Source of the DNA: Aplysia californica
Lineage: Eukaryota
Reading direction: 5' to 3'
Length of the DNA: 64,000 nt
Assembly (NCBI RefSeq): GCF_000002075.1
Contig: NW_004797351.1
Span: 1,139,199 to 1,203,198, forward strand
This document shows positions 6,779 to 61,909 of the stretch, in pieces. Position numbers and translations under genes: made by a program. A model generated the notes under the pieces. It ran no database searches. It saw only the letters and a program-made list of their open reading frames with translations, and had not been told where the DNA came from. Position 1 is the stretch's first letter, and the number at the start of each line of letters is the position of its first letter.

Positions 6779-9700
6779 ATGACAAGATGCAGTCCTTACA
6801 TAATATCATCAAACCTGGCTGTCTGCATCTGGATGATGATAATCCCTACCGTCCGGTCAACTCTGGATTTCCACGATTACAAACTTCAAGGACTGGGGAA
6901 TATCACGGAAAACATTGGAAAAGATAAAGTGGCTGGTTACTTCATGTTGCCTCACATATACAGGTGAATACAAATGTTTACTACAATGTAGTGAGCACTT
7001 TCTTCAACTTATAATATGTTGGGTTGGTGGCCCACAAAACTCATTTTGAAGCCAATTTGAACAAAAATTACTTCCCCCTTTTTATGTCACCATTTATTAG
7101 TTGAATTGTCACTCTTAACTTTATAAGCTGCTTCGTCAGCGAGCTGAAACTCTTTAGTTGTGCTTGTCAGACTTACAAGAAACGAAGGCATTTGAACCCC
7201 CCCCCCCCAAAAAAAAAAAAACTGTTGAAGAATTTGTATTAAGTCTAGGGTATCGTCCCAGTTACCCCAGGACATTAGGGGCCCCAGGTCTTTGAATTTG
7301 TTCAAGAAAATGCTGAGCCACCACTTTCTCACACAGGCCTCTATCTATAGTAAGTACTAGTACATCTATATATTTTGTTGCTACTGCTATTGCTGNNNNN
7401 NNNNNNNNNNNNNNNNNNNNNNNNNNNNNNNNNNNNNNNNNNNNNNNNNNNNNNNNNNNNNNNNNNNNNNNNNNNNNNNNNNNNNNNNNNNNNNNNNNNN
7501 NNNNNNNNNNNNNNNNNNNNNNNNNNNNNNNNNNNNNNNNNNNNNNNNNNNNNNNNNNNNNNNNNNNNNNNNNNNNNNNNNNNNNNNNNNNNNNGCTACA
7601 GAAGTAGTGTGCTCATTTCTTTTCCTAGAGTATTTATCAATGCTGGATCATCCCGGGAAGCTATGGATAGCACCAAAGTCTCAAAAAAATGTCAGAACAT
7701 TTTACACAACTACCGCAAGGCCTTGTCAGAGAAAGATGTTGCGGCATGGAAAAGTGAGAGCTTTTTGTTTGAAATACTTTGCTGTTCAGTCCATGAACGA
7801 TTTAGTTTATGTTTAAAAAAAAGAATTATTTAACTTAGTCTTTGGCTGTTTTGTAAGGTGCTATAGTTATTTATACCACTGATTTTACCATGGAATATAT
7901 CTTTTTTAAAGGGTTCTGATGCATAGCTCAGAAAGATTGTTGATCAGATTGATAGAGGGATATCTGGAATACTTAGTGTACCGTGATGATTTTTATCTTT
8001 CGCTTCGTGTTGAAAGTTTCCAGTCACCACGAAGCAAACTTAGACTGTTGAAAGAGGAATTGAGCTATGGAAAAAATGGAGGGCATTCACATACACAAAA
8101 AAGAAGCTTTAATTGGAATGAAGTTAAAATTAACATCCCCCTTGCTATTTTGGTAAGATAATATGGTTCAGTAGCTCATTGATGGCCTTGGGCTAGTGAC
8201 GTAGCGAGCGCTCAGTACTGATATGTTAGCCACGAGCGCTTCCTAAGGGGCTTGCTGTTATGCTGACACCCGTATAGTAAGGTAACGTCATTTCACAGCA
8301 CTTCTGTTTACATGTTTAAACCATTGAACCAACATAATGTGCCAACTGTTATATACTCAAAACGCATGAACCACTTCCAGTTTTGAGAAAATCATTTTTT
8401 TTCTCTTCCTTTAAAAAGTGTGTATCCAGATTGAGATGCTGTGAGCTGGAGGCCGTTGTCACAACATTTCTTACATTTCAGTGTATGATGCTACAGGAAA
8501 GCAGCCGTCTGGGGTGTTGTTTGGTGGTACTGCCTGGAAAAGCAGCTATGATCAGTGTGTAGTGGAAGTTCTGAAGGACAAAAGTGCAGACTCCAAAAGT
8601 GTCAGCCTTTCACCACAGTTTTGTGCCGTGTACATGTCTTCAGCCCCGTGGATTCCATCACTCGTCAAAGCATTTGTATGTCTTTCTTATGGTATTTGGT
8701 GTTTTTTCTTTTATTGTAAATATATTATGCAAGATCATTAATTTGTGTAGCTATTGAGTTGTTCATTGCACTCACGTGTTTTGAGATACTGGGTAAAACC
8801 TCAATAATGTTCTCTCAAAACGGTGTTTCCAACTCCCTACTTTAAGTGACTGTATCTAAAGAGCCAAAGCAGTTAGTCTGTACTGTTTTCACCCTCTCAC
8901 AGGATTTGAACAAATCTTTTAACTCATTATCTCCGGAGTAGGTTTCCCACTCTGCCGGGGCCCTCTTTTGGTACGAAACATAAAAGTGACATATATACGT
9001 CTTTAATCTGTTTGATCAAAAGAAATGATACTTTTGTGAAAGTTCTTCATCTAAAAAAACCTCCCGGTAAAAGAGACCTGTTTCGGCAATTTCCAAAAAT
9101 TAATACTATGTCAAAGTTGTTGTAAAGGAATGTGCTCGAGCCACTTTCAGGGGCTCACCGACACATTGGTCCTGACCTTGAGCTGCTGGCAGCGGCTTGC
9201 TGGAGATAAGGAGTAAATGGGATGCCTTCAAGTGGTATTTTGTCAAAATACTGTTTATAATTTTTTGAAAATGTATCTTGATTGCTCTGAAATGTGAGAA
9301 AAATGGTTAGCCTCCTGGGCTGGAAGGTACACTGATCTGTAAAACCTCTGAATTAATATTTTGAATTTCCATACGAGAGGAAAAGATCTTGCAGGGTTGA
9401 AAAAAATATTGGGATGACCTGGACTTGCCCTTGAACATATTTTCATTAAACCTCCTAGTAGAGCAAAATGCTAAAATTTTGGCCTGTGTTTCTGTTAAAG
9501 CATGATAAAACACTGTTTTAAGCTCTTCATTTGAAGTATCTGTTTTTTTCTAGTTGTTCTTGTCTGGAAATGAGATGCACATATGGAATGAAACTTTTGT
9601 AGTATAAAATTTAAAGTCGTGTATCCCCTTAATGTTCTATATGTTCATGCTAAAATGTTATTTCCAGTAATGCAGTTTGTTAGGTGCATACCACTGTTAT

Positions 9701-12700
9701 TCACATATTCCGTCTCTACTGTGCATTGCTGTATCTTTTCTGTCATCTTCAGAAAGTTCCATTCTCTATGCAAGTCCCCTCTTTCTTTGTGGACGTTTGT
9801 GTACCCAAGCTATGCTCCAAGTCGGACATTTTCAACCTTGTGGATGCATGTAAGAATAAGCTCACATTGGATACACTTTCATGACCCACATGTGTATATG
9901 TCTTTTTTATTTGATAAAATAAGTTTGGTGACTGGCATCCCTCTACATTTGCTTCAATGTGTCACATTTACAACACAATGGTTTGGCGTGATTGATGAAA
10001 CCGCTCTGATAACTTTGATATAGGGAAAGTCAACAGAGAAAGAGATCAGTGGGAAAAGTCAAGTTTTAGGAACTTTGTGATGATTCAAAACATGGACCAG
10101 GTCCTTTTGGAGACTGTCAGCAGGCTTTTGTTGATGTGGACACTCTAGCAGGATGGGGGATTAGCCACAATTTGTCCGTTGATCCAAACTCTGAGCCACA
10201 ATAACCAAGTAATAAACGATACTGCTGTGTGCAAAATGACACTCTTGACCACAGACCATCTGCTTCAGGGATACATAAACAACAAGACAATTCTAAAATG
10301 AATTTGCAGCCAGAGTCAGTATCATTTTGAGACAAGCTTTCTTCCAGCTCGGTCGCACTTTGACGGACTGCTTCATTTGTGAGGAAAACTGGATTGCCAC
10401 ATGAAGAATGAGGAGGAAGGAGGAGAAAAAAACCCCTTTAAAAATCAAAACAAACGCATAGCAAATAAGTCTGCCTGATCAGCATGACACATGGAGAGTA
10501 ATGGCCACCACATCATTTGAGGATGAAGGTTTCTCTGGTAACAGTAAAGTATAAGTCATCATATCTTTGAGTCATGCCAATCACAGCCTGCTGTTTTATG
10601 TTCTGTAAGACAACTGTCGTACCTTAGCGGCCCCCATGATGACCTGGGATGTTGTGCATTAGGTCAAGTAGTTTAGGGGGGGGGGCTACCTAACTCATAC
10701 TGAATTTCTTACCTCACTGTCTAAACAAGCTCATAAATAATGTTGGCATTGACATGTGCATTTCTTTTATATCATCTGAATGTAATGTTGCATTTTCGTT
10801 GCATACTTGGGTGTAATGATTCAGCTCTTTCTTGTTGTTTGCAGAATATGTGAGTTTGATTCCTGTGTGAGTGTTTCTGTGTGTCTGCTGGGATATTGTA
10901 TTTCATAAAGCTAGGGTTGACCCTGACTAGCAGGGTGGAATCAGCCAGCCTCTGACTCTGAGGTGGTCTAAATTGTGTCTCTCCATGGGGTCATTCAACG
11001 TTGGCTGTATATTATTTGCATTGAATTGTTCTGATTGCAGTCTTGAAACGGAACACCAGAGACCGCAATGTGACAGTGGAGTCTGTATCCTGCCAGTATT
11101 CCCACCAAATCACAAAGGACCCTGCAGCACTCATTTCTGTGTAAGTAGATTTGTCTCCACTATAATAGCATATATACAGTCGAATCTGTCACAAGGGAGC
11201 CAGAAAAAAAAATTCCATATTAGAAATTAGATATTAGAAGAGGGAGGTATCCGGAAGACCAGCCTTGCATGTGGTAAATGTATTTTTTTGTGCTGAGATT
11301 CAAAAATTGGAAATGTTCTTCTATGCTTAGTAACAATTTGAGTTATTGGGTCGGGTCTGCTGTATTCTTGGCTTGCTGTATTTCGTCAAACATTTGAGTG
11401 TGTGAAGATAACATTTCTTTTGGTTTGTAATGTATGAAACTAGCTATTCTCTTGCTTGTAATGTGTGAAGATAGTAATGCTGTTGTATTGTCTTGTGTGA
11501 TAATAGCAATCCTTATGTTTCATACTATGTAAAGACAGCAGTCCTGTTGTTATAAGTGTGGCGATAGCAGAACCCTTGTTTTATTATGTATGAAGTATGA
11601 AGAAAGGACTGCTATATTTTGAACGGTGACGATAGCAATCCTGTTGCTCTAGAGCTTTTATTCTGTGAACTCAAGTACACAAAAAGAAAGCCCAGATTTT
11701 TCTTTTGCTGCAGAGGAATTTAGATTTCAACAAAAAAAAAATCCATTTCCTCAGACTGGTTTTGTGTTTTTTCCTGCTGATGACACTGCTGGGTTCCTTG
11801 TATGAGTTCATTGTCAAGTGGCATGATGATTGGGGAGAGGAATGTACTTCAGATGAATGGATTTGGCCTGTCGGGAATAAAATGCCAGAAGGTGTCCTCT
11901 CATGGTTCCTTGTTTCTAAGTAAGTAAAGTCCCCTACTAATCCAGGGATGGTTGGTTTGCCTTTTGATAAACATCTGTGCTACATGTATTTTGTAAAACT
12001 ATAACCTTTGCTGCTTTTGCTGGTAAATAGTTTTATGTGTATGTCGTGATATATTGCATTATGGTTCTTGTTTATTTGAGGGCCAAATTTCCATTATTGT
12101 CATTTCCAGCCTTGCAAATGGGTGCCCTTTGTTAGTTTTAAACATATGTTCTTTTTTCTCAATATTTGGCAGAATTGCTCAGCAGCTCCGACCGAAATCA
12201 TTGTCAGAGGTAGAAGTGATCAAGGTTGTGCAGTGGGAGGATGACTCACTGGAGGAGGTTGGGCTAAATATGAAACTCGTTTCCTCTACTGTCATTGTCT
12301 TTTGAAGTCCCTGCCAAATTTTAGTAGATGGTGACTGTAGGATGTGGAACTAAAGCCCAGCTTTCATGGGTTTTATCTTTGGAGAATTGCTGTTGACTCG
12401 CAGATCAAAGGACCCTGTCAGCTCTTGCCTTTACTCCCCTGAAATGTCCATTGGTGCCTGTAGATCAATGGTTTAGCTCTTGATCTCTATAGCAAGCAGA
12501 AGTTGTGAGCTCAATCCTCACATCGTACAGTTACTTGTCAACCTAAATAGACCCAAAAGAATTTTTAAAGAAAAACACAAAATACAGTGGAGTCCGCTCT
12601 AGATCAAAAACATAACTTAACTGAACAAAATCTGGCCGTCCTACAGATTTTGGTTTAAGCTGACTCCACTGAATCTCAGAAACTAATAATCTGTGATGGA

Positions 12701-24700: not shown

Positions 24701-27700
24701 TGCTGATAAGCTAGCCGGCCAGGCAGAGATTGGCTGCACCATGTATTTAGATCCACCAACAGTCATGGCAGCATTGACAGAGAAGATGAAGGCACCACAT
24801 CACTCACAATTGATAGACTAAGGGAAGTTGGTGTCTCTAGAGGGTCGGGGAGAGACAGCAACCTACGTAGAAAAGCAAGAAGAATATCCAATCAGCTGTT
24901 AACTGGCACGATCAGCAGGCAGACACTTTCATGGATCCTGGAGAGGAGGGAGGAGCAGCTACAGCATTGTGCCGCCTGCAATGATGCCTGTTCTCCAACC
25001 AAGTAGGAAAGTATGTAAGTACAAGTGTCCATTGTCTCTTTAAATCACATATTTATTTGTCCATGGCTGCTGTTTCTAAGTCTTATCTTTAGTTTTGTAA
25101 CTTGTCTTTCAGAAAAGTTGACAGAGAGCTAGATGCATTGGCATATTCTCCAAAAAATTCGCTCCCCCCCCCCTCCCTCATTTGCGACTGCATAATTTCT
25201 ACAAAGAATTGAAATGGTCTTGCAAAATATGTTGGACTCTGTTGAAGCGCTGGCTATGTAACGATTTATGGACCCATATTGAGCATTAAGAAATTTTCTG
25301 TTAATCTTCATTGGATCAAAATCAGGCTGCTGACAGTTTTCCACTCTTGTTTACATTTTGTCGATACTTCTTTGAAAGTTGTGAAGGGACTAGGTGGACA
25401 TTTCGGGGCTTTATTAAGGAAGCAGCTGGGCTATTTGTGTACGATGGTGAACACTTTTATTTATATTTGAATGAGATAAGGATCTGGCTGAGGATGAGTG
25501 GGAAGTAGAGGTTTCTGTCGTTGACTTTGTCAGAATAAGCATAGATGTGTATTGCTATTTAGAATATATATAGGTCTTGTAATTAAATTCCTGCATGTGG
25601 TTGAATGATGCATCTGATGTGATATGTACATTTTTTTCAGCTTTACTTCTCTTTTCATATTAAATTTTACTGAGAATAATATATAATTTGAACTTTTTAT
25701 GCATACCTGCATGTGTTTTTATGTTCCTGTGCAGCAAAGAAAAATTTCTCTCTGGTATAATAAAGTATTATCTTATCTTATCTGATCTTGTCTTACCTTA
25801 TCTTGATGATGACAATCAAGTGGTATAAAATCACAGTCTTTGTGTACTTCCAGATGCCCCTATACACTGGCTGGGTATTGGCAGTTACTGTGACAACCGT
25901 CCTGACCTTTGTTACGTTAGATCAAAATGGAGCTGGCTCAAATTATGTCTGGAGCTGGACGGAGATAGCTGTCTACGAAGCGTTATCCCGGCCCGCTTGG
26001 TCACTGGCTCTCTCCTGGGTCATATTTACCTCGTCCACTGGACAAGGAGGTTGGTGGACAGTTACACCGAGGCAGGGGTCTCAAACCTGCCTCAAACCTG
26101 AACCAACTGAGTAGAAAGAATAATTGATAATATTATGCTTGATGCTTTGTTCTAAAAAAGACAAGAAATGTGTCACAAGGCGCATCAGACGCTTGTACAG
26201 TTTTGGGCTTATAGTATAGAGTTATTGGTAGTGTCTTAAAGCTTGTTCATTTGTCTTGCTTTTGAGAAAAAACATTCCTATTTGTTTAGTGTAAAAGTCA
26301 AGATATTTGAGATTGAAGAAGGTGGGGTTCACCTGGTGTCAGAGGTAGAATAAGCCTGAATATGGGCCCCAAAATTCGGTGACTTCCAAAGCTTGAGTGT
26401 CCTTGGAAACTGCAAATTAACATTTTTTTATGGTCATCAATGTTTTTCATTAAAATCTACCCACAAATGTGTCACAATCCGGTGGAATCAGGCACTCATC
26501 AAATCTTGTTTATGTGGAGTTTTTGGTATCATCTTAAAACTTGTTTATTTGTCTTGCTTTTGAAGAATGAGTGCCCATCTATCTTGGGAAAAAAAAAAGT
26601 GGAGATATTTGCGATTAATGAGGTGGGGGTCACCCGGTATCAGATGAAATTAGTGATAAAATGGCTTCCAAATTTTGGGGAATACCTAAGCTTAAGAGTC
26701 TTGGAAACTACAAGTTTACATTTTTTGTGTGCTTTAACTCTTTATCTCCGGCTTGCGGTTGGAACTGCTGCTCGGCGTATTCTTTTACGACGACTTCGAC
26801 ATCAAATTACTCTTCGGCAATTGCCGAAAACAGATCTCTGTTATCTGGATTTCGTTCATTAGATGAAGAAGTATCAAAATAGGTTCACTTGTTTTGGTTT
26901 GATGACCAAGGTAGTGACATTTTCGTCATTTTTGGATTTAGTACCCAAAAAGGGCCCGGCATTGTGGGTTTACCCCTCTCGGAGATACAGAGTTAACTCA
27001 CTGGAGACTGGGCCTCTTTCAGGTCAGCATGCACTGGAGACTGGCATTTTGGGGGGTATTTCAATGTTTCAAACAGCATCCTTCCCAAAGCCATAAAACC
27101 ACCATTTTTACACGCATAACAGATCTAAATATGCCCAATAGGACACAGAAAACAGAAAGGCAATCTCTTTTATAGTGTTTTAGAAATGATTTTTTGAAAA
27201 TATGCTGAAATTTGCCGCTTGCCAAAATTTGTTAATGTAATGCATTGTGTAAAAAAACCCAACAAAACACCCCCAAAAATCACCCTTGTGTGTGTCTTTT
27301 GTTGTGTTTTGTGTTTCAAAATGAATTTTTAAAAAGTTCAAACTCACGAATAGGCAGGTAATCGATATGGCAATCATTATGTATTAGCTGGGTATTCCAC
27401 TTCAGTGTGTAAAAAACAGGGCTTCAGACAAAGCGTAATTTTGCATTTGAAAGCGAAGTCTAGATCTAGAACTTTCGCTATCCTAATCAATGCTTTGATG
27501 CTAATTTACATTGAAATCAGGATTCCCATGGTCTGAAATATCATAATCAGAATTTTTTGAACTGCCAAAATCGTCAAACACTTGAAAAATGTTTGCTTTC
27601 AAACATCTCTCGTCCTGATCTCTCCTCCTTTTTTTGTGTTTGTTACTCTCTTGTAACACCTAATCTTCACCCCCCCCCCCCCCAAAAAAAAAATAAAAAA

Positions 27701-45870: not shown

Positions 45871-48515
45871 GCATCTAGACGGTCAAAAGCTGAGTATAAC
45901 TAGAATACTTCAATAATTGTTTTGCACATTTTTTCAATACCTCAAATAAATCAAACTTAATGATTGGAGAAATATGTTCAGGTAGTGTGTTCACAAAACA
46001 AACACCCTCACAAAAAAAAAAGGAAAATTACAGATTTTAAAAAAGTGGAGAATACAAAAAAATATTTGAAGTTCAATTATAAAATCACACGTAGACCCAT
46101 TCCTGTATAAATGAAGATGGACTTTCTTTTACAAAAAACAAACTGGCTTTAAAAAGCCATTCCCAAGACATTAACAAACAATGGTGCTCGCATCACTACA
46201 ATCAGCACAAAACAAATTTGACGGTGAGCAGTTTAAGGAGACATAAGACATCAGTACAATGCATTATAGTGTATAAACATACATATGCTCTAAGTCTTTC
46301 CTTTCTCCGATTAAATTGATAAATTTGAACGGCTTATCCATATAAACTTAAATTACAATAATCACAAAGAGGTAAAAACCAAAGAAACAACAGCTAAAAA
46401 CCCGTAAAAATCTCTTTACATTAAAATATATATCACTCAAATTGTGGAAGGAACAGCAGTTTTTTAAAAAAAGGAGAATTTTTTAAACTGTGAAAATCTT
46501 GAATACCAACACAAGATCTTTTCCACAAACATTTTAAACAGTATTTACACTCTTACAGACTTCCATGTGATCTAGGTTACTTATTGCTTGCTCGAAAACA
46601 TTTTATGCTCTTATTGACACACCAAATCATTCAGGACCTGGTTGGCTTCAACCCTTCCTTTTATGGCTAGTCCAGGCAGAGTGGGATACAACATCTCCAG
46701 CAGACAGACTTGGATACTTCATCAAAAAACTTCCTTACTTGGGAATCTAACTCGTGGGTTTTTTTTAACACACAAAAACAAAGTCTAACCATTGCAATAC
46801 AGACTCCATTCCAGAACTGCACTACTGTTTGGAGTTTTTGTAAATATGTACTGAAGTCTAAACGTACACTTATGATCTCAAAACTTAGACCTTTATAAAA
46901 GTGCAAATTATGATCCCTCTACATATTTCGATGAAAAGTGACTCCTGGGTCACAAAATACTGCCAAACCACTTTTATACTCTAAACAATCAGGCATACAC
47001 CAGATGCTTTCCAATCAAAAACACAAGACAGATGGGTTCATGTCTGTTCACAAAGTCTCATGTCACCCATCAAGAGCTGAACTTGTGTGTTATAACTAGA
47101 GTGGGAATATTTTCTTTTTCTGTAAAAAAATGTAGTGTCTAACAAACCACATATGCCTGCCACTCTGCAAGACCAGCCTGCAACATCTGTTTTTTCCAAT
47201 TACGGAAGTTGGGGCCCTACTCAGGAAAAGTGGGATGCACTCCAGCAGAAAGACAAGGATAATCAATTTAATATCTTTCCAAAATGGAAATAAACGTTAA
47301 GTGCTTCATTTGCAAAGCAAAGACAAAGAGCTTAACTATCTAACCATTGATGACTGTAAAACTTTCTATGAAATGATTATCTATCCCTCTGGCGAGCAGC
47401 TGATGACAGAAATGGGTGATGGTCATTGACTGACTGTCACTTATCCAAAGTGAACAATTTTTGCAAACGATAATCATTCCTTGTTCAAAATGTCCATATC
47501 TGAGAGCACAATCTGACTGTGGCATCAGTAACACTCAGAGAAAGGTAGATACAGGGATGATGGCGAGGGGACACACATTTGTAGCACTATGATTTAAAAA
47601 AAAAAAGAAAAAATAGAAATGCACATCGCCTCCATGAAATTTTACTTCCCCTGCTCACTATAGTTTCAGGCTTTACTGGGTGCACTGGTAATTTCTCTAT
47701 TATTTTAAACTTAAATCATTATAATTGTAGCCTGAGATTAATACATCCCTATGTTGTGTAAATGAAAAGAAACCAGGGTGCTACAGACCACATAACTGCC
47801 CTGGGATCTTCAGACAACTCCTCGTACAGAGCCAAACAAATTTGAATAATCAGCTAAGGGAATGAGATATCTGTGGGGTGCTACACTTCACCATTGAAAA
47901 TGGTAAATGTATTTGGACACAAAATTATAGTCAAATTCAGTACTTGATGTTGATCTGTGTTACACTTCACCACTAGGAAAAGGTATTTATGTCGATGACT
48001 AATGGGAAAGTTGCGTACAGGTACACTGAGAAAAGAGGAAAATATCACTTTGGTAACCACTTCTAAAATGAGATGAAACAGTAGAGTAAAATCATTTATA
48101 TGATGTTCTTTTTCATACTACTTACATGAAACAGCAATTTATACTGCAGGAAAAAGGTGAAAATTAATTTTTTTAAAACAGAAATGAACATTTTAAGACA
48201 TTTTTTAAGGGAAAAAAAAAGATTCCAAAAATGCATCTGAAACTGGAATTCTACCATAAAAAAACTTAACAGAAATTCAGTATTTAAAGATGAAAACACT
48301 TTCATAACTTTCTGCATCCAAATAAAACAAAGGTACAGGGTAAAATGTATAAACTTGAGCACATAAATCAATCTATTACAATGACTAGTCGCAAAAATCT
48401 ATTTAGGCTAAAACTGTACTCCAACTATTTCTATGGGCCAAGTAAGTTGAATTCAAAACCAGCCACTTCATGTCTATATAAGAGGTGATCTCCTCTGTCA
48501 CTTCATGGAAGGTTT

Positions 48516-51500
48516 TCAGTTTGCATTCTGACAGATGTACCTCTGCACCAGCTCAGGCACAGGCAGTTTATTGACATCTTTACAGGACACGAGGTGAAGG
48601 ACAGCTCGCCGACACAGATCCTGGGGAAAAACACAGGCAGTTTTGTTTGGTGCAAGTTGTATGGCACTCACAACTGCATTAAGTCAAATGAGTGCGTAAG
48701 ACACAAGTTGGTTATTTTCACGTCTGTTTTTGTTAGAGTCAAAAGAAGCAGGTTGACACATTAATGGTCAAGTTGTGCAACACCCCCCCCCCTCCCCCAA
48801 AACCCCCTCAGCAACAAACAAAAAACAAAAAAACCCAGCTGACACATGGGAAGTCAAGAAGTAGGACCTACCCTGTAATACCCTCCAACAGCCCTCCAGA
48901 ATGGCAGGCAGCTAGTTCAGATCAGCCAGATATGTGAGAGTCTTGAGTGAAATCCTACAGATCAGCTAAATATGTGAGTGTTTAAAGTGAAAGGCTTCAG
49001 AACTGAAGGGGCAGGGCACGATTAGCCAATGAGATGAGTGAGAGAGTTTGTGTGCATGGTGTGCACTTTTCTCCATTCAATAAATCCAAGCTATTCAGAG
49101 TAGACCTGCAGCAAAAGATATCTCGATTTATGGGCTTCGTTCTCATTATCATTCGCAAATCCAGTCTTGTAAGTTCATATTTTTTTTCATCATCTGCAAG
49201 TCTGCAAAGAAAATTACTAGGAAATAGAATACACATTTTCTGACATAAAAACGGACTTGCATACTCAGACCCTGAAAAACGTTTGAAATACATTTTTTAC
49301 GTACTGGTTGGCAGCTACACGACAAACGTTTGATAGGAAAGTAGGAGCAAACCACACCAGAGCACCCGCCAACTACCCAGTCAGTACCTGTAAAGAGCGC
49401 AGTTCTGTGGGTAGTTTGTACACAAAAACCTTGCGGCCGCAGTTCCGCTGCTTCATCACTGCCAAACACGACTCACTGAGAGAAAATCTGGGAAAGACCT
49501 GCAGGTTCACAAACTCCGACACTGGCCAGTACGCACCTCTCACTTCAACCTGAACAATAAGAAAAATCTAGTCAGAGAAATTTTAAAAACTGACTTCAAC
49601 TCCATAGCACTTACAAAACCAAACACATGAGATCACGGTGGAACTTCAGGAATCATGTTTTCTCCTTCGGTGCAAATCCCGGGTAAATTAAAAAACTTTT
49701 ATAGTTATAAAAAAAAAAAGGACAGTTTACTTCCTACAACCGTCATTTGATAGACACCATATACATCATAACTTTGGACGTGATAGTTGTAAACTGCATA
49801 GAGCACGCTATATACATGCAATCATTACTGTTATTAGATAGCGTAAACACAGCCTCACACTCGTGGCCTTCTGAGCGCGTGGTATCGGTGAAATTGGGGT
49901 AATTCACATCACTGTTTCTTCGCTCTTTCGCTATAAAAGACCAAATGCCATACACCTTGTAAAAGTTCAGCTTTTCCTCGTTTAAATGGTGTAAGTTGTT
50001 TATATGTCCGATTATTAGGAGCTGGAGAATCGCTGTGGAAAGCAAAGCCCCTCGCGGTCGGAACGCGTGGTCGGCTGGTTAAAAAATTGACACACCTGCA
50101 TTCAAATGCTTCGCTGAAAGATTGAGGATTAAATACCGTCTTTTCATTGGCTGAGAACTGTAGAGCTTTGGACGTGCTTTCCTGTAGTATACATTTGGCC
50201 TATGGCATTTAAATAAAAAGCCTTTAAAATGTCGTCAAAGTTTTTAAAAATCATTTTTTACATAAAACATGTAAAATAGCGGCTCCAAAAAGGTATCAAT
50301 AGAAAGATCAGTTTATTTTCTATTAGAATAAAGTAATTGGCTTGGAATTATTTTTCATCAATCCTTCCGACAAACTTGGAAAGCATGTGACCCCCATGCG
50401 GGGAGCGTTTGGTACACTACAGTATAGTAGGGTCGATTCGCTTGCCGCGGGGGGCTGGTGGGACGCCGGCCGGGTCAACGCTCTGTGCTTTTGTCAAAAT
50501 AACGACAGATCATCATGTTTGCGGCGATAAAATACTGATTTGTAATGGTCTTACAGTCTTGAAAAAAATTCTCAGGAGATATAGGCCTTTCATATGGAAG
50601 AGATAAATTTGGCATATAGCTACTTTGAAAATTTAGTTTCTGGTACCTAATATTATTGATTATTATAAGTTTGGACATCCTTACCCTCATCCCACAGAAA
50701 AAGTGTGACAAAACACAGCCAAAAGTACACAAAAACAAAACGAGAAAGAACAAAATAGTCACCAACCCGCATTGCCTTGGTGAAAGACGGATAATGCAGG
50801 ATGAGAATTCTGTTGAAATGGCAGCCGTCAGCTGGGTACGTGTATCTTACGGCCAGAAAATCTCCACTTGGACTGGACCTGAGAAAAGAAAACAGAGTCT
50901 GAGAATTTGACGCAAAATACATCACTGAGGGAAATGATTAAACTTCAGATGAACTTTGTTAATCCATTGAGAAAATTAATTAGTATTTTAAATTTTCAAA
51001 TAGAATAATCACATGAGAACCACATCAACCTCACTATGGCCATTTGATGTAAGCAAAACAATCAGATGTAGAGAACAGAGGGAACACAAAGGATAAAAAA
51101 CCTACCAGTGGCACCCTCTAATCCCTCACCCACCCACTCCCCACCCCAGTATTAACTAACAGTGTGCTTTCACAAACTCTAAAGTCACAAGTAATTACAT
51201 AATGATCAACAAGGGGAAACGCCATGTCTACACGTATAGGTATAGCCCCTGTCAAAACTATTAGTTTAGTTAAGAGGCAGGACCTTTGAGTTTAACATCC
51301 ACCTCCGAAAGGACCGAGCCAAGAGGGAAATCTGTGTAAAGTGCCTTTTTCCAAGGACACAAGTCGGACTGAGCTGAGGCTTGAGCCCACAATCTCACGA
51401 TAGCGAGTCAAGTAGCCTGACCACTAGGCTCCCGATGCCACAAACACAATGTCTCTGACACGGTCCACAACTAAAAGCCAAGACCCATGTTTTCTCTCTT

Positions 51501-54500
51501 TTTCTGTATCTCTCTCCCTTCTCTTCCTCTCTCTTTCACACAAACAAACACATAAAAAAAGGGTTACCTCAGAACAATTATAACATAAACATGTTCAATA
51601 TTATTGCATTTCTATTAAGAATTAAATTGTCAATTGTTTTTGTTGGAAATTTTTTGGTAAACAAAGTAGGTGAAATTAAGACATCTCTACATAACACAAC
51701 TCTTAAAAAAACCCAACTAAGTAAAGGTCATTTTCTGATATGAACTTTCCACTATGATGAGAACCAAATGCCAACTTAAAAAATTATATTTGAACACCAA
51801 TTAGTTACCAGCTGTCAAGCTAGTGTCTACAATAATTGTCTAATCTGAATAAACAACTAGCATAAACTACAACTTTCAGCAACATAGTCAGATATCCAGG
51901 AGACCAAGTTTTTATCTTGAAAAATTTGATCTTTACAAAGGCAGCCCTAAAAGCTTTTACTTTCCCTGCCTCGAACTGAACTAACCAAGACCCAATATAT
52001 GATTATTCAATAATTTTTATACCTGTATCAACTGTGTTTTATTTTAACCAAAACATAACAATTGTCACAAAAAACTACACTCACACCTACATGTGCGTAC
52101 ACTTCCACATACCTGATCTGATGTATGTGAGCATGAGGAATCATTAAGTTGTGCACCGAAACCACAGACCAGTCATCTGTTTTATACACCTGGAAAACGA
52201 AAAAACATCTAAACTGTCTCAAAAAAAAACCCGAGCACCTCTGTTTGGACCCTGTTTCAAAGGGCAAGTAAAAAAGAAGTTATTCATCTTTCTTATGACA
52301 GCGATACCAGTCTTATACTTTATACATTGAGCCATAATGGCATATTATAAAGGTTTTTATTTCACATTCTGTAAAAAACACCAAAGTCCGTCTTTCTATG
52401 AGCATCTTTTTTTCTGGTGTCTTTGAATAGTATTTTAAAATTCTGAACATTTCTATATGCCATACAGAGAGTTTTATCAAATGTAGATATTTCTTTACTA
52501 ACTTTTTGTGAGACTACACCTGAGGTCATGAAAGCAGTCACAAATTATTTGCATCCTGAGTCAAAAATATCTGCGGGCTGAATCTGTTAACATCTTAAGT
52601 CTTGAAAGGGATTCAAACACACACGATTTATATAATTTTTCAGGGTCTTACAAGCTGAGCTACTATAGCACAAGCACCTATATTTACCGGAAAAGAGGGA
52701 AATTTTAAAAAGCGCCACCGCAAGTGTATTTAACTCTTTTTATCCGGGCTATGAGTAAACTCGTAACGAGGACCAGTCCAGGCTACGAGTAAACTCGGAA
52801 CAGCTATACGGTCACGTCAAAAAGCTAGTTCTGCTTGCAATTACCAAAATACGCAAATACGGCGATGCCAGCTCTGTCTGAATATTTCAATGTTGCAATG
52901 AACAACGGTTTCTTTGTTTTTGATGGGTGTAGAAGCTTGAAAAATGTCTTGAAAACCCACATTCACAACCGACGAAGTACCTTTTGAAGTGGCGCTGGGT
53001 CGTGAGGGGGGAATGAGACTAATTTTATTAAAATGACTCTGAATCACATGCCACAAATTCCGTTGTGGATGACAACGACTGGACCAGTACTGGAATTTGT
53101 GCGGTACAGATGGGTAGGGGCAGATCTAGATCTATAAATCCAAGGGGATGTCGAGGCCGCTGCAATCAGGATCAAGTTGGAGGGAGGAATACATCTCAAA
53201 ACCTGCATGGTGCAATTGGTGTGATTCCTAACCACATACATTTACAAAAACTACATTCAATTTCTAACATAACTGCCAAATGTCCTTAAAATCTAAGAGT
53301 AAATGCAAGAAATACAGCACTCTGAAATATGCACGCTGAATTCCAGCTCATATGGCGCGGCAGCCCAAGGACGGGAACAGAGTCTGCGGGGGTACGGCCA
53401 GGATAAAAAGAGTTAAATGAGGACATTAAACACTGACATTCCATAAACTCCTAGTTGTTCACCACATTATGTTAATGTTGAAAAGTGTCACATCCTATGA
53501 GAATAACTGATGATCCCCAAGAAAGCATGTGCAGTCCCATTCAATTTGCAACAGAATATTTTAAAAGATATTTTGCGAGTCTAAACCTACACCTAAACTT
53601 TCAAAACTTTTTAAGTGCTGCGGGACAAAAGAATAGAAAGCCACATCAGTAGAATAGAACAGAAAATCACTGGGACGTGAAACAAGTTTAGAATATTTCA
53701 GCATTCATTAATTCTGGAAACATCTAGAAAAGTGGCACTTTCAGCACCTGTATGATGCGCTGACCAGCAGCTATCACATGCTCGTCCCCCAAGAGAGCAT
53801 TGTAGGTGATGCTACAGTTGGGGAGGTACGTAGGAATCTTGCTGATCGTGATGTCCGACATCGGAGGGTAACACTTGATGTTCTGGGGAAATAGAATGAC
53901 ATGGGAGTGGAGGGTAACATTTGTGTCATGACGCGGTGGAATCGGGTGCTAGTAAATTTTTGGGCACGTGGAGTTATTGGTATCATCTGAAAGCTGATTT
54001 ATTTGCCTTGCTTCCAATGAAATATATTTCCAACTATCTTTAATAGCACTTAAGATATTTGCGATTGAAGGAAGTGATGTCGCCTGGTTTCAGTGGTGAA
54101 ATTAGTGAGAAAAAGGCCGCCAAAGTTTGATAACTCCAATTCCAATAGCTAAAGAGTCCTTGAAAACTGAAAATTGACATATTTTGTGCCTTTAATCAAT
54201 ATTTTTAGGTAAAATGCACATGGAAATGTGTTTTGTATGTACATAAAAGAGGTTAAGCCAAAAAATTAAAAATTCGATTAAACTTTCCAAACTGACGGAA
54301 AAATACCCGTTCCTCCAATTTCTGTATTTAACGAGCGCCTGATTTCACCATGCTGCCTCACATTTGATGTTGTGGAGAAGTAAAATCATAAAATGATATG
54401 GGAGGGTACCATTTTCAAATAACTTCAGTCTCAGATCTTGATAGACAGCCTCTGCAAATTCTAACACTGTCCATTGCAACATATTGAGGTCTTTGAACTC

Positions 54501-56603
54501 AGATAATATTCAAACTCTCCATTCACTTGGTTCTCAATTATCACAGATGGACGTAGGAATCAGAGCTGAGGCCCTTTAAAGTACCTCTATAGTTAAAAGG
54601 AATACAAGGAGGGTAAAAACCCATTTTTGACACATTGAAAAACACATTTCAGCAAATTTTGCTTTCAATTTGGAAAAAGTAAAGCTATCAAAAAATTTAA
54701 AAAAAACAACCTTACAGTTACAAACACCGGACCAATCACCCACCTGCACTTCATAGTTAATTATAGCTTGGAAATGGTAGCGTACATCTGGCCGTAGGAC
54801 AATGTGCGATGTACTTGGGGACATGTGGACTTCGTACCACCGCCGCACGTTGTTGGCAATCACAAAATGTCCACTGCAGACTTGCTGGTCCATGTCAATG
54901 ACGTAAAACTTAGAGAAGGGTATAAATCTCTCTGTATTGACCTGAAAGAAGAAATTTTGCAAGTCTTTTGCAAGAAGAAAAATCCTTTTCTAAAAAACAA
55001 AATTATCTAAATACCCTCCTTTTTAAAGAAAGAAAAAACTTTTGTCTTTTGAGTACAGGGGAAAGGACAATCTTTAGAAAATTCACAACTATTCTTAATC
55101 TAATACAGTGGATCTAGGATGAATAACGAGTCTTGCTTTATCACTTCCATCCTGGTATTCCTTTAGGAAGAGGAGTAACAAGGAATGGAGCTCCCCCCTA
55201 CCCTTTTTTTTTTTGGTAAGTGTTTTACGGCGCTCGCAACTGCATATAAGGACAAACGACACACATAACATTTCCATTTTGTAGGAAATTTTGAATTTTG
55301 CCCAGGTGGCGGCCGAAGCCTACGGAACCTCCGAGATTTTTTTCGCCCTTGTCCGAGAAGGCTAGGTGTAGATCTTTCCTACCATACGATCAGGGGTGTG
55401 GCTGAAAGACAGCAGTAAGAAGGAGCCAAGGAGAAGCAGTGGAAAGGCAGCAGAAAGAGTCAGGAGCCCAAAGGAGGGGGCATAGGAGGTGAGGGGGTGG
55501 GGACAGAAAGTGGAGACGAAAGCAGACCACAGAATATTGATAGAGAGCAGGAAAGGAGGGGAAAGGAGACAATATTAGAGAAGAAAATGTTTCAGTCGCT
55601 ATCCGGATTCGAAAATGTGACCTTCGAATGAGAGGCCATAACCTTACTCTCTAGGCCAAGAGAGCTCTCTGTCCATCTTCTAAGTGCCATGATTATGATC
55701 TTATTCATATCACACGGAATGCGGATAAGAACGTACCTGCACAATGATGTATCCCTTATGGTATGCCACGACCCGAGTGCACCGATGGCTTCTCCTTTTC
55801 CGTCGAGGTCGGTTGTGACGCAGGTAAGCAGACAACTCTGTTGATGTGACTCGCGGAACTTTAATCGTAATGCAGCATGACGTCTCCTTTTCTTGAATCA
55901 TTAACTCATTTTGGGTTCTGCAGTAAAGAGGTAAAGAGATGAGGATGGAAACTTGCATCACCTAGTCTTTTTTTCCTCAAATATTATGCTTGACTCTAGG
56001 CTGGTGCATTACTTCATACGTACAACAGCAATGTACTACATCAAGAGTCAAACTGCAGAACTTGAAGAAAATGTTTAAATTTATTCCACACAGGTCTTAG
56101 ATATATCTAAAATAAAAGAGTTTCTTTTCTTTCCATAGAAATCTTTCATAAAATGGGTATTTTTTTGCTCACAGAAATCTGAAAAGAGGATACTTTTCTT
56201 TCTTTCAATTTAACTAAAATTTTTATCATCAATGAGTATATACAGAACTTTGAAACTGAAAATGAATTATGAAATTTAGGCAGTTAAAAATAGGCAACCC
56301 AACCCTGTTCCAGTTTATTTTGCAACTGACTTACTTGAATCCGCTCCTAAAGAAGCGGCCCTCCGTCGTATCCGGCCTGTTTGGGGAGCCATTGAGCTGT
56401 AGCAGTGAGTGTCGGCTTGAAGTGTAATCTGCTTTATCCGAGAATCCGCACACTTGCCTCTGTTCACGGCACCAAGCACCAAAGGAACAAGTCAGGAGCT
56501 CATCTCCCACATGACTTGTCTTCAGTTTATTGTAAAACTCAACTTTACTGTTCTTCTTGCCTTTTCTGCCCTCCCTTGGAGAGTGGGTCACAGAGTTACC
56601 CAT
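48516..56603 (-). CDS. Uncharacterised SOCS box-containing protein with WD40/beta-propeller-like region, 412 aa
   Basis: Phase-consistent GT-AG coding exons 56603-56335, 55917-55737, 54941-54744, 53882-53748, 52189-52113, 50878-50767, 49549-49388 and 48620-48516 (1239 nt). The C terminus SLQDLCRRAV..VNKLPVPELVQRYI matches a BC box plus Cul5 box. WD-like turns: MSPSTSHIVL, SSPSGDFLAV, FSLSESCLAV. Confidence 0.88.
51262..51440 (-). mobile_element. tRNA-derived SINE with CORE-like and Nin-like segments
   Basis: Minus strand: gagcctagtggtcagg..gggctcaagcc head, then gtgtccttggaaaaaggcactttac, then cggtcctttcggaggtggatgttaaact..ggtcc. Confidence 0.65.
52730..53416. mobile_element. TTAA-flanked MITE (piggyBac-like)
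   Basis: ttaactctttttatcc ... ggataaaaagagttaa. Confidence 0.8.
53918..54366 (+). mobile_element. Non-autonomous TIR DNA element (29270 family)
   Basis: Same internal sequence and termini as 29270-29708. Confidence 0.72.
55217..55670 (-). mobile_element. Nin-like tRNA SINE copy
   Basis: Reverse complement of the 21631-22140 head, core and tail. Confidence 0.8.
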
Positions 56604-59600
56604 TTTTTTAGAAACTATGATGATCCTGGAACTAAACACAGAAAAAACAAAGTTGAAAATATTTTTTTTCCAGAATAAAAGCAAAAATAAGCAATGAAAA
56701 ATACTAGAATTGGGCTAAAAAAGACCAGCTTCTCTTAATGATAAGAAAACCTTTCCTTAGAACTGAGCCCATCAATGCCACAGTAAAAGGATTCTGTCAA
56801 TATCACATTATACAATCACTGTTAGAAATAAAATGAATAGAATTCCAGAACTGGCAGGACTAATCTCAACCTATGAGTGTCTAAGGGGCAACAGCTTGAG
56901 GGCTTGATCTCTGTACAAGATCCTACAAAAATCTATAAATGTCTGCCAGTCAGCAGAGGCTGGGCTAAATATGGTAAATGCAATTCTTCTTCAAGTCCTC
57001 AATATTCATTTAGCTGTAGCAGCTGTTAGATTGATGCCCCCAGCCTAGACAGATTTCCTGGATCTTGTCAATGATTAGCACTCATGTCATCAGATCTCCC
57101 CCCCCCCCCCCTTCCCTTTCCTTCCATTATGAAACAGATGTCTCACACTTCTCACCTTCTCACCTACCTAGGCATTCGCAGCTACTCGTATTAGAACAAC
57201 CATATTAAAATTACCAATACAATTGTTACGTACACCCTTTTATCTATCAGCTTTTTTGGGGGGATAGGGGTTGCCATGAAGGGGAAGGGGGGGGGGGGGC
57301 CCTCAAACCCAAAAAAAGGAATTTGGGGGGGGGGGGGGGGGGGGGGGGGGCGGCAGGAGCAGACACACTGAAGTATATCAAGCAAGCATTCTAGTTTTCA
57401 ATCGATTTCCAAAATTGCTCTTTTATTTTTGTCTACTACCAGTAGTACTACGTCCTCCCCTTAGCTAGATCTCTGGAGTAGTAAACAGTTTAAGAACTGA
57501 GGGTGAGATGATTTTATTGCATTATAAATGGCGTGTTCTTCTTTAGTAGCGGGTACTGTCTTTCACCTTTCAGTCTTAAGGTACAGTCAAAATTGTCCTA
57601 TAATTACGGCCACCAACTGTCATGGAAAAAAGTGTTTGTCTTAGACAGGTGGACATCTCAGACCATGTTGATTGTTTGCACAGGTAGCCATTAGAGCAGG
57701 TCTGTGTACATTTATCTTAGATTCTTATATTGCCACCTAAAGTCTTAAATTATCACCAAGACGATAAAACTGTAAGCATGTTAAGAAAATTAAAAACACA
57801 ACTGAAAATATTATTTGGAAGCCAAGAATTGGCATCGAATGGAGGTGTTTTTCTTTGGTTCTGTGTCCTGGTTTTATGGGTGCTAGATTACATGTGGGAT
57901 ACTTCTTAAAAGTGTTACACGTTGTAGTGGTTGAAAAAATTTTTTGGAAGTTGTTGCTGCTGCTGTGGTTGTTGCTCCTGGAGAAAGATGGCTACATTTG
58001 TCTGGATTTGGAACGATGATGATGACGACGACTACTACTACTACTAATTATCTTTTTGTTTTGTTTTAGTAGAGGTTTTACGGCGCCCACAACTGCATAA
58101 GGTCATATGATATGAGCGCCACTTATTATCTTTACAAGAAAAATAACAATTCCATTAATATGATATGACGGTACATATATATATATTCATTATATCACTC
58201 CTTATCATAGCTTTCCCCTTTTATTGGCCTTCCGATATATGTTCCTCGCACGCACCATTGAGGATTGTGGCCTATCCTGTTTAAACACTTTAGTTTCCAA
58301 AGTGTAGATCTAGTCTAGTCATTAATATTATCTTAAAAAATTTTCCTGACAAAGCCCTAAGCGGCGAAACATTGAATATAATATAAATGTTTCGAAATTC
58401 AAAGCAGTCTCCACCATTTTTTTTTTACCGTCTACAACATAATGATAATGATGATATATATATCAAAGCAGATTAAGTAACGCAGTTGAGAATCTATGAA
58501 AGTGATGATGATGATAATGTTAGTTAGCCGTTTAGTATCATTTTCAGCTCCTATTCTAGATCCCCGCCCCCCCCCCCAGGCTGTCCTTTGGGGCAGAACA
58601 CATGCCTCATTTCCTCCCTTTGCATAGAATGACCAAATCTTGAAGCTATATCCTCATCACTTCCTTAACGTGTTATAACTTTAGGTTTGCCGAAATGTAA
58701 TCACATGGGGTCTGTCTCTAGTTGATGACTGTGTAAGCAATATGAACCCTATCTCGGCTATCATTGGTCCAATAATAATTATGATTTTAGCAACCAAATT
58801 AATCTTGTATAGTTATAAAATTAGAGATACTTGTTTAAACTTGAGACAAAACAATGTCACACATTTTGATTCTCTTCCAAGTCATCGCTATCACCGGATC
58901 ATGGATGGACTGTGATGGCCAGTGGATTTATTAATAGGAATAACTCAGTGAAATTGCAATGTGGTATAGTAAGACTTGTAGAGAGAGGTTTGAAAGTTTA
59001 AAGATCAGTCCAAAGGACAAACCCCAAACTTAACAAAAGCATCAACCTGCTGCAGCTTGAAAGCAAAGAAGCTTTGAAATTAGAAAACAAAAATAAAAAG
59101 GGTGGTGGCAGCTGATCACTGCCAGTATTCCTTGGTTAAGCTTAATGATAGTGATCTCTTTCACGGTTTGGCTCAGACATATCTGTCTTTTCATCACAAC
59201 ACATCAAGCGGCTCACTTATTCAAACTCATAAAAGATGGGTACTAAAGAGACCAGTCCTATAGGGTAACTCCAGGGCACTGGTATAGTCGAAAAAATGAT
59301 GCTCTAACAACCACCTGTATAAAATGTAAGACAATCATCAGTATGAACGACCACTTCCCATTTCCTCTCTTGCCCATTTTTTACAAGCCCTATAATAATA
59401 ATAATTGGTGTAAGACAGCCACCTGTTGAGGCCACTTTTCTCCTAAACAATGGCTGGCCATCTTAGGCAGTTTCAATTGTTCATAGTTTATACATATATA
59501 TGTACCTTACTTTAAATGATTTTTAAAATACCCATCTACCTTGAATAGAGCAGTTGAGATATTTGAGATTGAAGGAAGTGCGAGTTGCCTGCTTTAAAAG

Positions 59601-61218: not shown

Positions 61219-61734
61219 CCCTAAATAAGTCTGCATGTAACATATTTTGAAAAGACTCCAGAAGAGAAATCGAGCAATGTCACGCTCACGAAATTGTTAT
61301 AGTTATAGTGTACGGACAAGAACAATGGAAACGTCCATCTTCGGGCCAGCAGGCAACAGATTGGGACAGTCGAAACCCAATTATTAGGTCAAGGGAAGCA
61401 ATTCCATCACGTGATCATAATATTTACTAAAGGTTACCAGTACTAACTAAACTAAACGCTTTTAATTTTTTTTTTTACTTAGACCACCTCTCTGCTTGGA
61501 CTAACTCTTTACACTTGAAGGAGTAGATTAGATCTATATTTCTACATAACTAGATTTAGATCTATTTTCAATGTTATGGTTTTGAAAAAAATGGACGTAC
61601 TTATAGGCTAATTACAACACAGGTTTATGCACACAAGAGCCAAGCCAAGTCTTTGCTCTCTGGTATTGTTTATCGAGTTTTTCTTCCTTCAAAAGTTATA
61701 AAAGTATCACTCAGTCACTCACTCTAGTATCAAA
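61219..61734. promoter_or_regulatory. Putative bidirectional promoter and non-coding first exon of the SOCS-box gene
   Basis: Minus-strand donor GGG|GTAAGT at 61218; YY1-like AAGATGG at ~61335-61341 (-); palindrome ATCACGTGAT at 61406-61415; Inr-like TCAGT at 61711, just before the COA3 ATG. Confidence 0.55.
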
Positions 61735-61909
61735 ATGGCTGACAACAGTGGCATAACGAAGGTCGACAAATTGTCGCAAGCCGATTCCGATAAATATTTC
61801 ATCAACAAAGTTGAAAAGAACAGAGCCCGATTGGGAACGAAAATGGTTGCATTGAAGGGCAAGAACAAATTTGTTGGTTTCTTCCTGGCATGTGGAGTTT
61901 TTGGTATAT
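61735..61909 (+). CDS. COA3: Cytochrome c oxidase assembly factor 3 (CCDC56) homolog, first coding exon; the rest lies beyond the window or in the gap
   Basis: MADNSG...KVDKLSQ..KYFINKVEK.R....KGKNKFVGFFLACGVFGI(Y) matches the COA3 pattern of a basic stretch followed by N..xG..L...VxxIY; the exon ends in phase 1 at a GTATCCTTT donor. Confidence 0.8.

What the first reader, a model, noticed from the sequence alone, without database searches (positions are those of the whole stretch)
48516..56603. Unassigned SOCS-box protein with a degenerate, apparently incomplete beta-propeller: candidate lineage-specific Cullin5 substrate receptor
Seen: eight exons, scattered over separate ORF-track fragments, join in phase into 412 aa ending in SLQDLCRRAV..KLPVPELVQRYI. 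Known: SOCS boxes recruit ElonginB/C-Cul5, and named families pair them with SH2 (SOCS/CIS), ankyrin (ASB), SPRY (SPSB), WD40 (WSB), Rab40, NHR or Tubby domains. Here there is no SH2 FLVR motif and no ankyrin or SPRY signature. Instead there are ~5 beta-rich segments with WD-like turns (SPSTSHIVL, SPSGDFLAV, FSLSESCLAV) but no GH/WD dipeptides. Inference: an E3 adaptor outside the named families.
Basis: partly seen in the sequence, partly recalled or inferred. Interest (0 to 1): 0.7.

Follow-up and report, generated by a model that had tools for sequence, protein, structure and literature searches.

The report
Membrane-tagged propeller SOCS-box adaptor family
This is a real, spliced sea-slug gene from an unnamed family found in molluscs, annelids and related animals; its protein has a standard SOCS-box tail, a predicted six-bladed propeller and a likely fatty-acid membrane anchor, so it likely picks out proteins at membranes for destruction by the Cullin5 ubiquitin ligase.

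Summary
Observation confirmed. Eight minus-strand GT-AG exons join in phase into 412 aa, identical to an uncharacterized Aplysia californica protein (LOC101857239). Spliced contigs from four studies support it and add a non-coding first exon. The SOCS box passes Pfam's cut-off and has the Cul5-type LPVP. Three corrections. (1) The propeller is not a five-blade remnant: AlphaFold (pLDDT 88, pTM 0.88) gives strands that group into six blades, apparently closed by an N-terminal strand; the best solved matches reach only Z 13-13.5. (2) It is not narrowly lineage-specific: 74 proteins link through the propeller alone, in about ten clades; named members are molluscs, annelids, a nemertean and a rotifer, with at least two paralogs in this genome. 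It is not WSB or TULP4: separate genes with those features exist in this genome. Best reading: an unnamed WD40-derived family of likely myristoylated Cul5 substrate receptors. Same working plan as WSB, a different lineage. Lipidation, ligase binding and substrate are untested.

The parts
61219..61420 (-). Non-coding first exon (5' end approximate); spliced to the acceptor at 56626; in-frame stop just upstream of the ATG
   Evidence: contigs of X10 and X13 join 61219 to 56631; GT donor after 61219 and in-frame stop six codons before the ATG
56335..56625 (-). Coding exon 1 (ATG at 56603; residues 1-89): myristoylation pattern, basic patch, closing strand 35-40, helical insert, start of blade 1
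56583..56603 (-). N-myristoylation pattern, residues 1-7 (Gly2, Asn3, Thr6), followed by a basic stretch
   Evidence: sequence; rule from PMC2829124; family counts; modification itself inferred
55737..55917 (-). Coding exon 2 (residues 90-150), blade 1 and start of blade 2, with an Arg-rich loop
54744..54941 (-). Coding exon 3 (residues 151-216), blades 2-3
53748..53882 (-). Coding exon 4 (residues 217-261), blades 3-4
52113..52189 (-). Coding exon 5 (residues 262-286), blades 4-5
   Evidence: joint 50876-52111
50767..50878 (-). Coding exon 6 (residues 287-324), blade 5
49388..49549 (-). Coding exon 7 (residues 325-378): ortholog-specific loop 327-342, blade 6, start of the BC box
48516..48620 (-). 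Coding exon 8 (residues 379-412 and stop): rest of the SOCS box
48555..48566 (-). Cul5-box motif LPVP (residues 397-400)
   Evidence: sequence; LP-hydrophobic-P rule from PMC4812663; 56 of 74 family members
49415..56501 (-). Span encoding the predicted six-bladed beta-propeller (residues 35-369)
48240..48515 (-). 3' untranslated region as far as contigs reach (end not defined)
   Evidence: contigs of X5 and X13 extend to 48240 and 48259

Best explanation
The gene encodes a likely N-myristoylated substrate receptor predicted to work with the ElonginB/C-Cullin5 ubiquitin ligase, and belongs to an unnamed multi-paralog family of spiralian animals that likely derives from a WD40-SOCS ancestor. Steps: (1, shown) a spliced mRNA encodes 412 aa starting at Met-Gly. 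(2, inferred from a conserved pattern) Met is removed, Gly2 is myristoylated, and the lipid plus the basic stretch behind it hold the protein at a membrane. (3, predicted) residues 35-369 fold into a six-bladed propeller closed by strand 35-40; residues invariant in orthologs but not in paralogs (W185, R200, Q285, R298, N309, Y331, W332, E336, N339, R363) likely form a paralog-specific substrate site. (4, inferred from motif and established SOCS-box biology) the BC box binds ElonginC and LPVP selects Cul5-Rbx2. (5, inferred) a membrane-associated or membrane-proximal protein is ubiquitinated and degraded or re-routed.
For: Gene and splicing. SOCS box over cut-off; Leu377 in 73, Cys381 in 69, LP-hydrophobic-P in 56 of 74 members; 70 of 74 hit Pfam SOCS_box. 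ElonginC and Cul5 exons are in the same genome and a published orthogroup table lists Aplysia CUL5, ELOB and ELOC. Fold: pLDDT 79.6 with 19 rows, 88.4 with 74 rows, same strand pattern; the top 50 rows of each solved-structure search are, by their titles and my recall, beta-propeller proteins; model residues 31-33 align with the first strand of WD40 chains, as expected for a closing strand. Family: 74 of 78 full-length candidates link at E<1e-5 with the SOCS box cut off. Gly2 in 46 of 74, and in each of ten hand-listed clades; 37 of 46 meet the PROSITE-like rule against 207 of 1216 internal glycines. Distinct from WSB and TULP4.
Against: No substrate, lipid or localisation data exist. 28 of 74 members do not start with Met-Gly as annotated (9 have a Met-Gly further in that looks like the true start; others look truncated or have lost it), and 9 of the 46 fail the strict rule, including two Haliotis orthologs. 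18 of 74 lack the exact LP-hydrophobic-P. The model matches solved propellers poorly (TM about 0.3, Z at most 13.7, rmsd 4-5.5 A), blade 1 has only three assigned strands, and I could not inspect coordinates, so ring closure is read from strand order and alignment ranges. Candidates were preselected with a profile that contained the SOCS box, and five kept it. Only 7 of 30 looked-up clusters carry a taxon, so the range outside Spiralia is open; an Atlas nematode cluster scored 0.89 on the whole protein but was not listed for the propeller alone. Three raw RNA runs show almost no exon depth.
Confidence: 0.62

Rival explanations
1. A soluble Cul5 substrate receptor: SOCS box and propeller work as above, but Gly2 is not lipidated, or the lipid serves folding or a protein contact rather than membrane anchoring.
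For: The pattern is loose (PMC2829124 passage); 28 of 74 annotated starts lack Gly2; myristate can also bind partner proteins.
Against: Gly2 recurs across ten divergent clades whose N-termini are otherwise unalignable; Ser/Thr at position 6 in 33 of 46 against 10% for internal glycines; 10 of 46 add a Cys within residues 3-10, as in dual acylation; net positive charge in residues 2-25 in 30 of 46.
Confidence: 0.17
2. A strongly diverged offshoot of WSB: an old duplicate that lost a blade and the WD40 signature and then expanded in Spiralia.
For: Same order and size (propeller whose last strand runs straight into a C-terminal SOCS box); remote WD40 similarity (RACK1 E 3e-5, WDR5 E 3e-3); WSB2 cluster in the Atlas list at 0.81, a lead only.
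Against: The family profile gives the canonical WD40+SOCS gene on contig C561 1.0 bit, less than unrelated WD40 proteins, while another WD40-SOCS gene (C56, P0089) scores 29-33 bits and aligns at 98.9% probability (SOCS box included). WSB2 has seven WD repeats; 0 of 74 members hit PF00400. Caveat: naming C561 as WSB rests on recalled motifs.
Confidence: 0.12
3. The SOCS box binds ElonginB/C for stability or scaffolding, or recruits Cul2, and the protein is mainly a membrane scaffold rather than a degradation adaptor.
For: Known SOCS boxes differ in Cul5 use (SOCS1 passage); 18 of 74 members lack the exact Cul5 motif.
Against: This protein has the full LPVP and the downstream hydrophobic and Tyr positions; the motif is kept in 56 of 74.
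Confidence: 0.08
4. Artefact of chance exon joining, or a decayed gene.
For: Almost no exon depth in three raw RNA runs.
Against: Spliced contigs in four studies, an identical annotated protein, and 18 mollusc homologs at 35-66% identity, most covering nearly the whole length.
Confidence: 0.01

Closest known systems
WSB1/WSB2 (WD repeat and SOCS box proteins)
   Same: Propeller followed directly by a C-terminal SOCS box; similar length; Cul5 substrate-receptor plan (passages of PMC12816127 and PMC4812663).
   Different: Seven recognisable WD40 repeats in WSB2 against six blades and no Pfam WD40 hit here; no specific sequence link; a separate canonical WD40+SOCS gene in the same genome; conserved Gly2 pattern; about ten paralog clades.
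TULP4 (WDR35-type propeller, SOCS box, Tubby domain; architecture recalled)
   Same: Propeller immediately before a SOCS box.
   Different: PF24797 hits contigs C447 (upstream of a SOCS box) and C921, not this locus; here the SOCS box ends the protein.
Unnamed molluscan WD40-SOCS proteins (P0089; gene on contig C56; probably the Atlas ANAPC4_WD40/WD40/SOCS cluster)
   Same: Nearest detectable relative outside the family: 29-33 bits against the propeller-only profile, 98.9% profile match over blades 3-6 and the SOCS box.
   Different: Still scores as WD40 over the cut-off; did not join the family at E<1e-5; itself undescribed in my searches.
FBXO27 (N-myristoylated SCF substrate receptor)
   Same: A cullin-ligase receptor targeted to membranes by N-myristoylation (review passage, PMC12285598): the functional model for step 2.
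   Different: F-box/Cul1 and glycan binding; unrelated fold. Membrane-located Cul5 receptors are also known (Rab40 at the Golgi, ASB11 at the ER) but use other domains.

Membership tests
SOCS-box (Cul5) substrate receptors | C-terminal SOCS box over the Pfam cut-off | tested here: met
   PF07525 31 bits, cut-off 23.5, residues 375-407
SOCS-box (Cul5) substrate receptors | BC box with conserved Leu and Cys | tested here: met
   Leu377 in 73 and Cys381 in 69 of 74; helix 377-388 in the model
SOCS-box (Cul5) substrate receptors | Cul5 box LP-hydrophobic-P | tested here: met
   LPVP at 397-400; rule; 56 of 74 members
SOCS-box (Cul5) substrate receptors | Physical assembly with ElonginB/C-Cul5-Rbx2 and substrate ubiquitination | not testable with these tools
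   Needs pull-down and assay; ElonginC and Cul5 exons are present in the genome
WSB1/2 | Seven recognisable WD40 repeats | tested here: not met
   0 of 74 members hit PF00400 at E<=0.1; no WD dipeptide; six blades by strand count; WSB2 has seven repeats
WSB1/2 | Orthology to WSB | tested here: not met
   A separate canonical WD40+SOCS gene on C561 scores 1.0 bit against the family profile and gives no blastp row with P0001; a published table lists one Aplysia WSB ortholog. The name WSB for C561 is recalled; no human WSB sequence was available for a reciprocal search
WSB1/2 | Structural superposition on WSB | tested here: inconclusive
   No WSB chain is listed in the fold searches
TULP4 | WDR35/TULP N-terminal propeller (PF24797) and C-terminal extension | tested here: not met
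   11 PF24797 matches in the genome, none at this locus; not among the 23 families hit by 74 members; protein ends after the SOCS box
SOCS/CIS, ASB, SPSB, RAB40, NEURL2 | SH2, ankyrin, SPRY, Ras or NHR domain | tested here: not met
   Only SOCS_box at E<=10 for P0001; none of these among hits of 74 members. The name SOCS6_7 on a cuttlefish ortholog is therefore a misnomer
WD40-like beta-propellers | Ring of four-stranded blades | tested here: met
   pLDDT 88.4, pTM 0.88; best solved matches Z 13-13.5 over 250-275 residues; weak profile hits to RACK1, CIAO1, WDR5
WD40-like beta-propellers | Regular closed ring | tested here: inconclusive
   Closing strand inferred from alignment ranges; rmsd 4-5.5 A and TM about 0.3; coordinates not available to inspect
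N-myristoylated proteins | Gly2 at the true start, allowed residue 3, small residue 6, no Pro at 7 | tested here: met
   Upstream in-frame stop fixes the start; rule; 37 of 46 Gly2 members
N-myristoylated proteins | Actual myristate attachment | not testable with these tools
   Needs labelling or mass spectrometry

The most novel reading that the evidence does not exclude
Spiralian animals carry an undescribed, ancient repertoire (about ten clades, several genes per genome) of myristoylated, membrane-anchored Cul5 receptors whose atypical six-bladed propeller replaced one WD40 blade by a helical insert, each paralog reading a different membrane target through its own top-face loops: a membrane-protein degradation layer that vertebrates and insects appear to lack.
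Probability: 0.4. Interest if true: 0.62.

Novelty: new variant of a known kind. Interest (0 to 1): 0.45.

Why it matters
The known list of Cul5 receptors comes from mammals. This defines a family that databases hold only as 'uncharacterized' or 'SOCS box domain-containing', has no Pfam model for its main domain, and combines a propeller, a SOCS box and a likely lipid anchor. It offers a ready test in Aplysia and Biomphalaria of membrane-targeted protein degradation, a propeller geometry with no close solved relative, and a correction of a misannotation as SOCS6/7. It does not change how SOCS-box ligases work, which limits the score.

Tried and rejected
Complex prediction of the SOCS box (residues 368-412) with the C-terminal exon of the genome's own ElonginC: no verdict (0.33 against a mark of 0.34; controls 0.00-0.02; the alignment was not used; a textbook pair and a fragment). 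No RNA holder was listed on record as RNA. Single-sequence search of solved structures: 0 hits. Per-exon Pfam: only the SOCS box; Carla_C4 and HL_N-beta hits are below cut-off and dismissed. No WSB, DCAF or six-bladed propeller stood out in the fold searches; this absence excludes nothing. Viral structure library: generic propellers only, TMq at most 0.40. Atlas leads DCAF17, FBXW12, At2g24240 and a nematode cluster are under 0.9 and were not pursued. No WSB chain was found to name the C561 gene. No internal repeat by self-blastp. Averaged loop conservation did not favour the presumed top face: bottom turns are as conserved, and only the 327-342 loop stands out as ortholog-specific. The N-terminal exon of the C488 paralog was not found. 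A protein search of the own genome found only this locus (9 candidates); paralogs appeared only through SOCS-box loci: 30 of 61 matches came with 3-kb loci and 18 more were fetched, so the paralog count is a lower bound. Literature: ten searches gave no paper on this family; LOC101857239 has 0 hits and is absent from the Aplysia immunome text and its held supplements, one of which was cut when stored. Subscription papers and bioRxiv supplements were not searchable. Earlier scan notes: nothing relevant. A bacterial promoter scan is not meaningful here.
Full report
1. Observation. Eight minus-strand exons between 56603 and 48516 have GT..AG introns and join in phase into 412 residues. A search with exon 3 alone returned one protein, P0001, NCBI's uncharacterized LOC101857239 of Aplysia californica, identical to my model. 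A 1544-nt contig of run X10 passes through all exons; X13 and X5 give one bridging contig each and X11 two partial ones (four studies). X10 and X13 continue into a further exon at about 61219-61376, and an in-frame stop lies six codons before the ATG, so Met-Gly at 56603 is the true start. All four runs read G at 48570, a silent change in Asn395. Three raw polyA runs of one study show almost no exon depth; their reads sit on intronic repeats.

2. SOCS box. Pfam finds only SOCS_box, 31 bits over a 23.5 cut-off. LPVP at 397-400 fits the Cul5 rule quoted in PMC4812663 (passages). ElonginC exons and a Cul5 exon are in the same genome, and the orthogroup table of PMC9334734 lists Aplysia CUL5, ELOB, ELOC, TULP4 and one WSB ortholog (supplement rows). 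CUL5 is described as an animal-wide group (PMC2785787 passages) and SOCS boxes as its receptor signature (PMC13015453 passages).

3. Fold. AlphaFold2 gave pLDDT 79.6 with 19 rows and 88.4, pTM 0.88, with 74 rows, with nearly the same secondary structure. The strands group as: blade 1, 85-109 (first strand near 72-78 unassigned); blade 2, 135-179; blade 3, 186-231; blade 4, 240-275; blade 5, 282-326; blade 6, 343-369 plus 35-40 (my grouping). Foldseek and VIA searches return propeller proteins throughout, best Z 13-13.7, rmsd 4-5.5 A, TM about 0.3. Alignments begin at model residues 30-33 against the first strand of WD40 chains (WDR61 33-371 to 5-304, 238 of 293 residues), which fits a closing strand and six of seven blades. 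That the top matches are seven-bladed is recalled. A conserved helical insert (41-84; W44, G53, F54) lies where a seventh blade would be; this is inference, as I could not view coordinates. So the domain is divergent and atypical, but not a five-blade fragment.

4. Family. A word-based search gave 18 homologs from gastropods and cephalopods at 35-66% identity. A profile search of 1.84 billion representatives gave 98 hits. Of 78 proteins of 340-510 residues from these two calls, 74 linked at E<1e-5 in iterative searches with the SOCS box removed; five could not be trimmed and four stayed out. 70 of 74 hit SOCS_box, none hit WD40 PF00400, and 9 weakly hit the THOC3 propeller. A FastTree tree (79 rows, 385 columns) places the gene in a 19-row clade (support 99) whose named rows are all molluscs, within a 27-row clade with Capitella and Tubulanus (98), beside about nine other clades; deep forks are weak. 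Of 30 clusters looked up, 7 carry a taxon: Liolophura twice, Capitella, Dimorphilus, Paralvinella, Tubulanus and Didymodactylos (phylum assignments recalled). The Atlas adds a mollusc cluster (0.95) and a flatworm cluster (0.92). In this genome the propeller profile finds paralogs on C488 (E 4e-37) and C58 (E 9e-6), a lower bound.

5. Myristoylation pattern. 46 of 74 members start Met-Gly (Gly is 4.4% of their residues); 33 of these have Ser/Thr at position 6 and 10 have a Cys in 3-10. 37 of 46 meet the rule in PMC2829124 (passage) against 207 of 1216 internal glycines, and each of ten hand-listed clades (69 of the 74 rows) has such a start. Members are related, so the p-values overstate independence; persistence across clades at under 25% identity is the real argument. 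28 of 74 lack Gly2 as annotated; 9 of those have a Met-Gly further in that looks like the true start. P0001 itself fits and carries a basic stretch behind the motif. FBXO27 is the precedent for a myristoylated cullin receptor (PMC12285598 passages).

6. Not WSB or TULP4. The genome has 61 SOCS-box matches. One on C561 lies downstream of canonical WD40 exons on the same strand whose motifs I recall as WSB; the family profile gives it 1.0 bit, below RACK1 at 26 bits with the full profile. One on C447 follows PF24797 exons, the TULP4 plan. The closest outside relative is another unnamed WD40-SOCS gene (C56, P0089): 29-33 bits and 98.9% by profile alignment with the SOCS box included. The family therefore likely descends from a WD40-SOCS ancestor other than WSB; without real WSB sequences a deep common origin is not excluded.

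7. Mechanism. Shown: gene, transcript, start, SOCS motifs, family. Predicted: six-bladed propeller. Inferred: myristoylation and membrane location, ElonginB/C-Cul5 assembly, substrate capture. Thirteen polar or aromatic residues are kept in at least 85% of 26 orthologs but in under 35% of 48 paralogs, concentrated in the 327-342 loop, as expected for paralog-specific targets; averaged loop conservation gave no clean top-face signal. No substrate can be named.

8. Novelty. Ten literature searches found no description of the family and none of the gene id (listings seen, seven papers read as passages). It works like WSB, is not a member, and adds a likely lipid anchor: a new variant of a known kind. 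Interest 0.45.

Noticed in passing
window 61735-61909, + strand: A spliced, well-covered gene starts about 300 bases from the non-coding first exon, head to head, so the two likely share a promoter. Its 55-residue exon looks like cytochrome c oxidase assembly factor 3 by recall; no Pfam hit.
   Followed up: partly
window about 8445-26111, + strand: Exons of an NRF-6-like acyltransferase gene: PF20146 NRF over cut-off at 8445-8738; later frames resemble the membrane part by recall but gave no Pfam hit.
   Followed up: partly
window 3146-5337, - strand: Broken non-LTR retroelement in three frames with endonuclease and reverse transcriptase domains.
   Followed up: partly
window 24135-24617, + strand: RNase H fragment, probably of a retroelement, inside the acyltransferase gene.
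   Followed up: no
window about 49328-49380, 53950-54363, 55204-55530, 58060-58110: Intronic repeats that attract very many RNA reads and contigs with loose ends; the same element recurs at many fetched loci and in the window's open frames.
   Followed up: no
G000:C398 about 534553-638891: Seven SOCS-box matches in long open frames (517-622 residues) within about 105 kb: a tandem expansion of single-exon SOCS-box genes of unexamined type.
   Followed up: no
L056:6973-8010 (G000:C56) and P0089: A second unnamed WD40-SOCS family in molluscs, distinct from both this family and the C561 gene.
   Followed up: partly
L055:7237-8355 (G000:C488), L039:4705-7184 (G000:C58): Paralogs with a different exon layout: C488 holds most of the protein in one exon, and neither has the intron inside the BC box.
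   Followed up: partly
P0065, P0147: Rotifer members of 735 residues with a long low-complexity insert within blade 2; the Atlas flatworm cluster has a similar length.
   Followed up: no
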